DNA of 45,245 nt from sequence record PQ435593.1. The stretch is one strand, 5' to 3'. A program made the translations under genes and the position numbers. Under the pieces are notes generated by a model that saw only the letters and a list, made by a program, of their open reading frames with translations, was not told the origin of the DNA and did no database searches. Source of the DNA: Escherichia phage vB_Eco_K-01. This document shows, piece after piece, positions 38,014 through 38,167 of the stretch; the stretch's first letter is position 1; each line of letters opens with the position of its first letter.

Positions 38014-38167
38014 CTCGGTGCCGTTGCCGGTGATTACAGTGCTGGTGAAACTGTAACCAAACGGATGCAGCAACCAGGTCTTACGGGTCCCTCGGTGCCG
38101 TTGCCGGTGATTACAGTGCTGGTGAAACTGTAACCAAACGGATGCAGCAACCAGGTCTTACGGGTCC
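38014..38167. repeat. perfect 77-bp tandem duplication inside the 3' end of the major capsid gene
   Basis: Two identical, adjacent 77-nt copies (38014-38090 and 38091-38167). Because 77 is not a multiple of three, the second copy read by the ribosome is out of frame; the track shows this as the capsid C-terminus switching to GPVRPGCCIRLVTVSPAL. Confidence 0.9.

What the first reader, a model, noticed from the sequence alone, without database searches (positions are those of the whole stretch)
38014..38167. Perfect 77-bp tandem duplication frameshifts the major capsid gene
Two identical adjacent 77-nt copies lie inside the 3' end of the capsid gene. The encoded protein therefore ends in 18 out-of-frame residues (GPVRPGCCIRLVTVSPAL) instead of a roughly 45-residue native C-terminus that would run to about 37900, just upstream of a clean terminator. 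A capsid protein lacking its C-terminus is unlikely to be functional. This is either an assembly or sequencing artefact, a defective genome in the sequenced population, or a recent duplication.
Basis: seen in the sequence. Interest (0 to 1): 0.65.

Follow-up and report, generated by a model that had tools for sequence, protein, structure and literature searches.

The report
Untrimmed assembler overlap, not biology
The perfect 77-bp duplication that breaks the capsid gene is almost certainly left-over overlap from the SPAdes genome assembler (k = 77) that became internal when the circular contig was re-opened, so the real phage has an intact, ordinary capsid gene.

Summary
Window 38014-38090 and 38091-38167 are identical and adjacent, and they frameshift the minus-strand major capsid gene: 330 aa with an 18-aa junk tail, instead of 349 aa. 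The cause is a finishing artefact, not biology.

- Removing one copy restores a 349-aa protein 100% identical to the phiEc3 capsid protein.
- Every related phage record and independent contig examined has one copy. The junction is absent from three large public collections.
- The window matches Escherichia phage vB_Eco_K-01 (PQ435593): 45,245 bp, G+C 50.68%, and 95% coverage with 99.59% identity to phiEc3. K-01 was assembled with SPAdes v3.14.1 and re-oriented.
- All four genomes of that paper carry one perfect repeat of a SPAdes k length. J-01 has 77 bp and T-01 has 127 bp, both at the record ends. The two re-oriented records, K-02 and this window, have 77 bp as internal tandems.
- K-02's copy sits at an unrelated site and also frameshifts a gene.
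- K-01 forms plaques, shows 53-nm heads by TEM and has a one-step growth curve, so its capsid gene must work.

The true genome is most likely 45,168 bp. Biological interest is low. The practical value is a correction to four GenBank records.

The parts
38014..38090 (.). Copy 1 of the 77-bp unit (CTCGGTGCC...ACGGGTCC). Under the artefact model this is one end of the original SPAdes contig.
   Evidence: identical to 38091-38167, with 0 bp of microhomology at the borders.
38091..38167 (.). Copy 2 of the 77-bp unit. The 38090/38091 boundary is the inferred join of the two contig ends.
   Evidence: BLAST against phiEc3 breaks exactly at 38090/38091, with both halves mapping to the same single-copy 77-mer (phiEc3 7069-7145).
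38034..39026 (-). Major capsid gene as it reads in the deposited sequence: 330 aa, made of 312 native residues plus 18 out-of-frame residues.
   Evidence: It matches PHROG 247 'major head protein' only at profile positions 3-310 of 351.
37900..38013 (-). Native 3' end of the capsid gene: 37 codons (37903-38013) plus the stop codon (37900-37902). The extra 77 bp puts it out of frame.
   Evidence: the collapsed ORF is 349 aa; it is 100% identical over residues 1-349 to the phiEc3 capsid protein. Homologues at 30-40% identity align through residues 340-349.
37863..37884 (-). Intrinsic-terminator-like hairpin (GAGAGGGAC TTCG GTCCCTCTT, then TTCATTT), starting 16 bp downstream of the restored capsid stop codon.
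1..549 (-). Small terminase gene. Window base 1 is the last base of its stop codon, which shows that the record origin was chosen deliberately after assembly.
   Evidence: The window is a 10-bp rotation of the reverse complement of phiEc3. The sister record K-02 starts the same way, with CDS 1..561 on the minus strand.
43985..45208 (-). Large terminase gene at the other end of the record. In reverse-complement orientation it is the first CDS, matching the paper's statement that each genome was re-oriented so that terL is the starting CDS.

Best explanation
The duplication is a genome-finishing artefact. The phage has a circularly permuted or terminally redundant genome. This is inferred from the way it and its relatives assemble as circular permutations of one another. 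SPAdes therefore assembled it as a cycle and wrote it out as a linear contig whose first and last k bases are the same, with k = 77. The contig was then re-opened so that the terminase genes sit at the record ends. The old contig ends were joined without trimming one copy of the overlap, which turned the terminal 77-bp overlap into an internal perfect tandem duplication. The join happened to fall in the 3' part of the major capsid gene. Because 77 is not a multiple of 3, the annotated gene is frameshifted. The real phage, very probably vB_Eco_K-01, has a 45,168-bp genome and a normal 349-aa HK97-fold capsid protein. Shown here: the anatomy of the repeat, single copy in all relatives, the same signature in all four genomes of the same study, and the chosen origin. 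Inferred: the exact order of operations in the submitters' pipeline.
For: (1) The repeat is exactly 77 bp, perfect, tandem with no spacer, has 0 bp of microhomology at its borders, and is the only exact repeat of 20 bp or more in the window. (2) Collapsing it restores a 349-aa ORF 100% identical to the phiEc3 capsid protein. (3) All 40 best phage records span 77 bp less than the query, which means one copy. Nine independent contigs or records that cover the repeat have one copy; L010 stops short of it. Among them, L009 is 100% identical to window 34800-38694 apart from the extra 77 bp. (4) The junction is absent from viral, metagenome and genome contig collections, and the truncated protein is not on record. 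(5) The window matches vB_Eco_K-01. The length is 45,245 bp (paper text). G+C is 50.675% against 50.68% in Table 1. My BLAST against phiEc3 covers about 95% of the window with a top-HSP identity of 99.593%, against the paper's 95% and 99.59%. Methods were SPAdes v3.14.1, and 'each genome was reoriented'. (6) Same-pipeline controls all carry one repeat of a SPAdes k length. K-02 has one perfect 77-bp tandem at an unrelated site (L002 4893-5046), which frameshifts a 146-aa gene that is intact in the window and in phiEc3. J-01 has bases 1-77 identical to its last 77. T-01 has a 127-bp terminal overlap. phiEc3, from another pipeline, has none. (7) Window base 1 is the last base of the terS stop codon, as in K-02. 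[quoted passage not shown] (9) K-01 is viable: plaques, 53-nm heads by TEM, one-step growth.
Against: No reads were available, so the absence of junction-spanning reads is not shown directly. The window's own GenBank record (PQ435593) is not in the searchable collection, so its identity rests on length, G+C and BLAST statistics rather than a sequence match. The paper states 2x300 reads, for which SPAdes would by default go up to k=127, as seen in T-01, not 77. J-01's 77-bp terminal overlap shows that k=77 was nevertheless the final k in at least one of their runs. The paper's text gives G+C as 50.17%, and its Table 1 swaps the two Kagunavirus genome sizes.
Confidence: 0.97

Rival explanations
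1. A genuine, very recent tandem duplication (replication slippage or illegitimate recombination) that is fixed in the sequenced phage stock.
For: The two copies are perfect, as expected for a very young duplication. Tandem duplications do occur in phage genomes (general knowledge).
Against: It would truncate and frameshift an essential, single-copy capsid protein whose C-terminus is conserved down to about 30% identity, yet the phage plaques and makes normal heads. There is no microhomology at the borders. The length equals a SPAdes k. Sister genomes from the same pipeline carry their own 77- or 127-bp perfect repeats at unrelated sites or at the record ends. All relatives are single-copy.
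Confidence: 0.01
2. A defective sub-population (a non-viable mutant propagated by co-infection) that the assembler picked up as the consensus.
For: High-titre lysates can contain defective genomes (general knowledge). Coverage was only about 30x.
Against: A lethal allele cannot be the majority in a plaque-purified lysate. This does not explain why the length is exactly 77, or why K-02, J-01 and T-01 show the same k-length signature.
Confidence: 0.01
3. An artefact of a different origin: a manual or reference-guided join of two separate contigs that overlapped by k, or a duplication introduced by a re-orientation tool, rather than closure of one circular SPAdes contig.
For: Contigs that are neighbours in a de Bruijn graph also overlap by k, so the signature would be the same. 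The origin matches the phiEc3 layout to within 10 bp, which is compatible with reference-guided finishing.
Against: J-01 and T-01 show the single-contig circular form, with terminal overlaps. There is only one k-length repeat per genome. This rival differs only in detail and gives the same biological conclusion.
Confidence: 0.01

Closest known systems
SPAdes (de Bruijn graph) k-mer end-overlap on contigs assembled from circular or circularly permuted templates
   Same: The perfect repeat has a length equal to the assembler's final k (77). It is seen in raw terminal form in the sister genomes J-01 (77 bp) and T-01 (127 bp). It is described in PMC5923482, PMC13631441 and PMC8104045.
   Different: Here the overlap is not at the record ends. 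It has become an internal tandem duplication because the contig was rotated before trimming, so it looks like a frameshift mutation in an essential gene.
Major capsid protein of Escherichia phage vB_EcoS-phiEc3 (QZI78276.1; Kagunavirus, Guernseyvirinae); HK97-fold coat protein gp13 of Bacillus phage SPP1 (PDB 4an5, 6r3a)
   Same: After collapsing the repeat, the protein is 100% identical over 349 aa to the phiEc3 protein. It aligns with SPP1 gp13 over residues 1-340 at E = 3e-42 and matches PHROG 247 'major head protein'.
   Different: As deposited, the last 37 residues are replaced by 18 unrelated residues. This difference is artefactual.
Genuine tandem duplications in phage genomes (slippage or illegitimate recombination)
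   Same: Head-to-tail arrangement of identical copies.
   Different: There is no border microhomology. It hits an essential gene out of frame in a viable phage. The length equals an assembler parameter and recurs at unrelated positions in genomes from the same pipeline.

Membership tests
Untrimmed SPAdes k-mer overlap made internal by re-orientation | Repeat length equals a k value used by the assembler in that pipeline | tested here: met
   77 bp in the window. J-01 from the same study has an exact 77-bp terminal overlap, K-02 has a 77-bp tandem and T-01 has a 127-bp terminal overlap. SPAdes v3.14.1 is stated in the methods.
Untrimmed SPAdes k-mer overlap made internal by re-orientation | Two copies 100% identical, directly adjacent, with no spacer and no border microhomology | tested here: met
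   The same holds for K-02.
Untrimmed SPAdes k-mer overlap made internal by re-orientation | The record origin was moved after assembly, so the record ends are not the contig ends | tested here: met
   Base 1 is the last base of the terS stop codon. K-02 follows the same convention. The window is a 10-bp rotation of reverse-complemented phiEc3. The paper states that the genomes were re-oriented.
Untrimmed SPAdes k-mer overlap made internal by re-orientation | Single copy in independent assemblies of the same or near-identical sequence | tested here: met
   The junction is absent from three collections.
Untrimmed SPAdes k-mer overlap made internal by re-orientation | No sequencing read spans two copies, and depth over the 77-mer equals that of the flanks on the collapsed sequence | not testable with these tools
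Neither the truncated capsid protein nor the unique tailspike is on record in the assembly collection.
HK97-fold major capsid protein (PHROG 247; SPP1 gp13-like) | Significant sequence similarity to a solved HK97-fold coat protein over essentially the full length | tested here: met
   Restored protein: PDB 4an5_A at E = 2.9e-42, residues 1-340 aligned with chain residues 1-315 of 324; PHROG 247 at E = 1.9e-117, profile positions 3-342 of 351.
HK97-fold major capsid protein (PHROG 247; SPP1 gp13-like) | Intact conserved C-terminal segment (the ...LANxxNWxRVxD... motif region) | tested here: not met
   As deposited, the ORF stops matching at profile position 310 of 351. The feature is met only after one 77-bp copy is removed.
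Genuine tandem duplication by slippage or illegitimate recombination | Short homology at the duplication borders; presence in the DNA molecule itself; compatibility with viability | tested here: not met
   0 bp of microhomology. It is lethal-type damage to an essential gene in a phage shown to plaque and form heads. Presence in the DNA itself is not testable without reads.

The most novel reading that the evidence does not exclude
The 77-bp duplication is physically present in at least part of the packaged K-01 DNA, and the match of its length to SPAdes k=77 is a coincidence. The phage stock would then carry a capsid-gene duplication, either as a tolerated truncated or split capsid protein or as a defective genome maintained by co-infection.
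Probability: 0.01. Interest if true: 0.45.

Novelty: not a real feature. Interest (0 to 1): 0.06.

Why it matters
Biologically it does not matter: the capsid gene is ordinary and intact. It matters for data quality. The deposited K-01 genome is probably 77 bp too long, and its major capsid protein is annotated in a truncated, frameshifted form. The sister record K-02 has the same defect in another gene. J-01 and T-01 carry untrimmed 77- and 127-bp terminal overlaps. Such records can seed false 'truncated capsid' proteins, false frameshifts and false direct terminal repeats in downstream databases and phage-therapy dossiers. A simple screen would catch this class of error. It would look for a perfect tandem or terminal repeat whose length is 21, 33, 55, 77, 99 or 127 bp.

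Tried and rejected
- I searched for the duplication junction in viral contigs (33-mer) and in metagenome contigs and genome contigs (23-mer). There were no matches.
- I looked up the exact truncated 330-aa protein and the window's unique 711-aa tailspike to find the source contig or an independent Logan assembly of the same reads. Neither is on record, so no read-level or independent-assembly test of this isolate was possible.
- I tried to fetch PQ435593 directly. It is not in the collections.
- There was no match in E. coli genomes, so it is not a prophage.
- Real duplication: rejected because there is no border microhomology, the gene is essential, the phage is viable and the k-length signature recurs.
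- Programmed frameshift or translational bypass rescuing the gene: rejected by inspection only. The junction reads GGC ACC GAG | GGA CCC GUA AGA with no slippery heptamer. Restoring the native C-terminus would need either a 77-nt hop or a +1 shift that yields a 26-aa internal repeat. No formal test was run.
- Split capsid (330 aa plus the TTG ORF 37900..38073): rejected as ad hoc, because the relatives have a single 349-aa gene.
- Two early literature searches for explicit wording on the k-mer overlap gave nothing usable. Later searches succeeded.
- I found papers using the SPAdes series 21/33/55/77, but no paper stating that 77 is the automatic top k for 150-249-nt reads. That point rests on my knowledge of the SPAdes manual.

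Full report
**Observation.** Tandem Repeats Finder reports one strong array in the window: 38014-38167, period 77, 2.0 copies, 100% matches and no indels. A string comparison confirms that 38014-38090 equals 38091-38167, and the identity does not extend by even one base on either side. It is the only exact direct repeat of 20 bp or more in the 45,245-bp window. The repeat lies in the 3' part of a minus-strand ORF, 38034..39026, of 330 aa. That ORF ends in 18 out-of-frame residues, GPVRPGCCIRLVTVSPAL. Deleting one copy gives a 349-aa ORF with its stop codon at 37900-37902 and a native C-terminus of 37 residues. A terminator-like hairpin lies just downstream, on the minus strand at 37884..37863, with a 9-bp stem, a TTCG loop and a T-rich tail.

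**What the gene is.** The restored 349-aa protein matches the HK97-fold coat protein gp13 of phage SPP1 (PDB 4an5 and 6r3a) at E = 3e-42 over residues 1-340, including a conserved C-terminal LANxxNWxRVxD segment. It also matches PHROG 247, 'major head protein', over profile positions 3-342 of 351. The deposited 330-aa form stops matching at profile position 310. By tblastn, the restored protein is 100% identical over all 349 residues to the capsid protein of Escherichia phage vB_EcoS-phiEc3. Of 744 matching phage records, 721 cover at least 80% of it. Homologues at 30-40% identity (Shewanella, Achromobacter, Vibrio, Pseudomonas, Listeria and Brochothrix phages) align through residues 340-349. 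The missing C-terminus is therefore a conserved part of the protein.

**Relatives have one copy.** In a megablast of 37840-39030 against 50,697 phage records, all 40 best hits span 1,114 or 1,107 bp against a 1,191-bp query, exactly 77 bp less. These include the 100%-identical phiEc3 and vB_Eco_K-02.
- BLAST of the whole window against phiEc3 breaks precisely at 38090/38091, with both sides mapping onto one 77-mer.
- Nine contigs or records that encode the neighbouring 99-aa protein were shown (Logan, ENA and NCBI). Each one that covers the repeat has a single copy (L010 stops short of it), and each with a complete capsid ORF calls it at 349 aa.
- Among these, L009 (ENA ERZ15185027) is 100% identical to window 34800-38694 apart from the extra 77 bp.
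- The junction sequence is absent from the viral, metagenome and genome contig collections.
- The truncated protein is not on record, and there is no prophage match in E. coli genomes.

**Where the window comes from.** The window is a complete Kagunavirus (Guernseyvirinae) genome. It runs in reverse-complement orientation relative to phiEc3 and is rotated by 10 bp. Base 1 is exactly the last base of the terS stop codon, and terL lies at the other end. A raw contig break would not land there, so the origin was chosen after assembly.

A paper on four coliphages (PMC12529148) describes vB_Eco_K-01 (PQ435593) as a 45,245-bp Kagunavirus whose closest relative is phiEc3, at 95% coverage and 99.59% identity. 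The window agrees on each figure.

| Property | Window | Paper, K-01 |
|---|---|---|
| Length | 45,245 bp | 45,245 bp (text) |
| G+C | 50.675% | 50.68% (Table 1) |
| Coverage against phiEc3 | about 95% | 95% |
| Top-HSP identity to phiEc3 | 99.593% | 99.59% |

The paper's text gives G+C as 50.17%, and its Table 1 swaps the two Kagunavirus genome sizes; I read both as errors in the paper. I could not fetch PQ435593 itself. [quoted passage not shown]

**Mechanism.** 77 is a standard SPAdes k. The series 21/33/55/77 appears. That 77 is the automatic top k for reads of about 150 nt is from my own knowledge of the SPAdes manual. When SPAdes assembles a circular or circularly permuted template, the linear contig carries the same k bases at both ends.
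- k=55 gave 55-bp terminal repeats and k=77 gave 77-bp terminal repeats from the same circular virus (PMC13631441).
- 127 bp were removed before a genome was reverse-complemented and re-opened (PMC8104045).

If such a contig is rotated without trimming, end plus start become a perfect k-bp tandem duplication with no spacer and no microhomology. That is the anatomy seen here.

**Test with same-pipeline controls.** I examined the other three genomes of the same paper.

| Record | Repeat | Position | Effect |
|---|---|---|---|
| vB_Eco_K-02 (PQ436005, re-oriented like the window) | one perfect 77-bp tandem | 4893-4969 = 4970-5046, an unrelated site | frameshifts a 146-aa gene, annotated there as 138 aa |
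| vB_Eco_J-01 (PQ438393, not re-oriented) | 77 bp | bases 1-77 identical to 146504-146580 | terminal overlap |
| vB_Eco_T-01 (PQ438391) | 127 bp | first 127 bases identical to the last 127 | splits its ssb gene into a CDS and a 'similar to' misc_feature |

The K-02 unit is single-copy in the window (5900-5976) and in phiEc3. Collapsing it restores an ORF identical to window 5659..6099, and its borders again show 0 bp of microhomology. phiEc3, from a different pipeline, has no exact repeat of 20 bp or more. So four of four genomes carry exactly one perfect repeat of a SPAdes k length. It is terminal in the unrotated records and an internal tandem in the rotated ones. This pattern is very hard to explain biologically.

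**Viability.** K-01 forms plaques, shows a 53-nm head and a 117-nm flexible tail by TEM, and gives a one-step growth curve. It therefore makes functional capsids. That is incompatible with a fixed frameshift in its only capsid gene.

**Conclusion.** The duplication is an untrimmed SPAdes k=77 overlap made internal by re-orientation (confidence about 0.97). The true genome is most likely 45,168 bp, with a 349-aa capsid protein identical to that of phiEc3. The rivals each get about 1%:
- a real recent duplication;
- a defective sub-population;
- a k-overlap join of two contigs, which gives the same biological conclusion.

**What could not be done.** No read-level check was possible. One loose end remains. 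The paper states 2x300 reads, which would normally give k=127, as in T-01. Three of the four genomes show 77 instead, so read length after trimming or the k settings must have differed between runs.

**Novelty and interest.** This is not a real biological feature. Interest is low (0.06). The practical value is a correction of four GenBank records. It also suggests a simple screen: perfect terminal or tandem repeats of 21, 33, 55, 77, 99 or 127 bp.

Noticed in passing
L002 (PQ436005.1, vB_Eco_K-02) 4893-5046; equivalent single-copy site in window 5900-5976: The sister GenBank record has its own perfect 77-bp tandem duplication. It frameshifts a 146-aa hypothetical gene, annotated there as the 138-aa CDS 4753..5169. 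Collapsing it restores an ORF identical to window 5659..6099 (-). This is the same artefact at a different site.
   Followed up: yes
L014-L016 (PQ438393.1, vB_Eco_J-01) 1-77 and 146504-146580; L013/L017 (PQ438391.1, vB_Eco_T-01) first and last 127 bases: Both records keep untrimmed terminal overlaps, 77 bp and 127 bp, which are canonical SPAdes k lengths. In T-01 the overlap region splits the ssb gene into a CDS (6..464) and a 'similar to single strand DNA binding protein' misc_feature (165592..166161). The true lengths would be 146,503 and 166,036 bp. I did not scan the interior of T-01.
   Followed up: partly
window 20956-23091 (-): The 711-aa tailspike is novel. No phage record covers 80% or more of the 2.4-kb region, and the best hit covers 25% at 83% identity. 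No exact protein is on record. The N-terminus is conserved (Pfam Tail_spike_N, PHROG 29731), followed by a right-handed beta-helix (PF13229, NosD). This is the main difference from phiEc3 and K-02 and is probably the host-range determinant. The paper reports that K-01 lysed only 13 of 45 strains against 27 of 45 for K-02.
   Followed up: partly
paper PMC12529148 versus window and L002: The publication is internally inconsistent. Table 1 assigns 44,896 bp to K-01 and 45,245 bp to K-02, while the text and the GenBank record for K-02 (44,896 bp) say the reverse. The text gives K-01 a G+C of 50.17%, against 50.68% in Table 1 and 50.675% computed from the window. The reported burst size for K-01 (117,442) is implausibly large.
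   Followed up: partly
window 1-5081, 5082-5260 and 20728-22918 versus L001 (phiEc3): The relationship to phiEc3 is mosaic. The structural arm 27501-45235 differs by only 4 mismatches in 17.7 kb. The left arm 1-5081 is 96.5% identical with 10 gap openings. About 180 bp at 5082-5260 and about 2 kb around the tailspike have no or poor match. This suggests recent recombination between close Kagunavirus relatives.
   Followed up: no
L004 (Logan ERR11269312) 10313-10662: In this independent assembly the 116-aa Ig-like head-decoration gene, the homologue of window 37178..37528, is called as two ORFs of 49 and 67 aa. This could be a frameshift or an assembly error in that contig.
   Followed up: no
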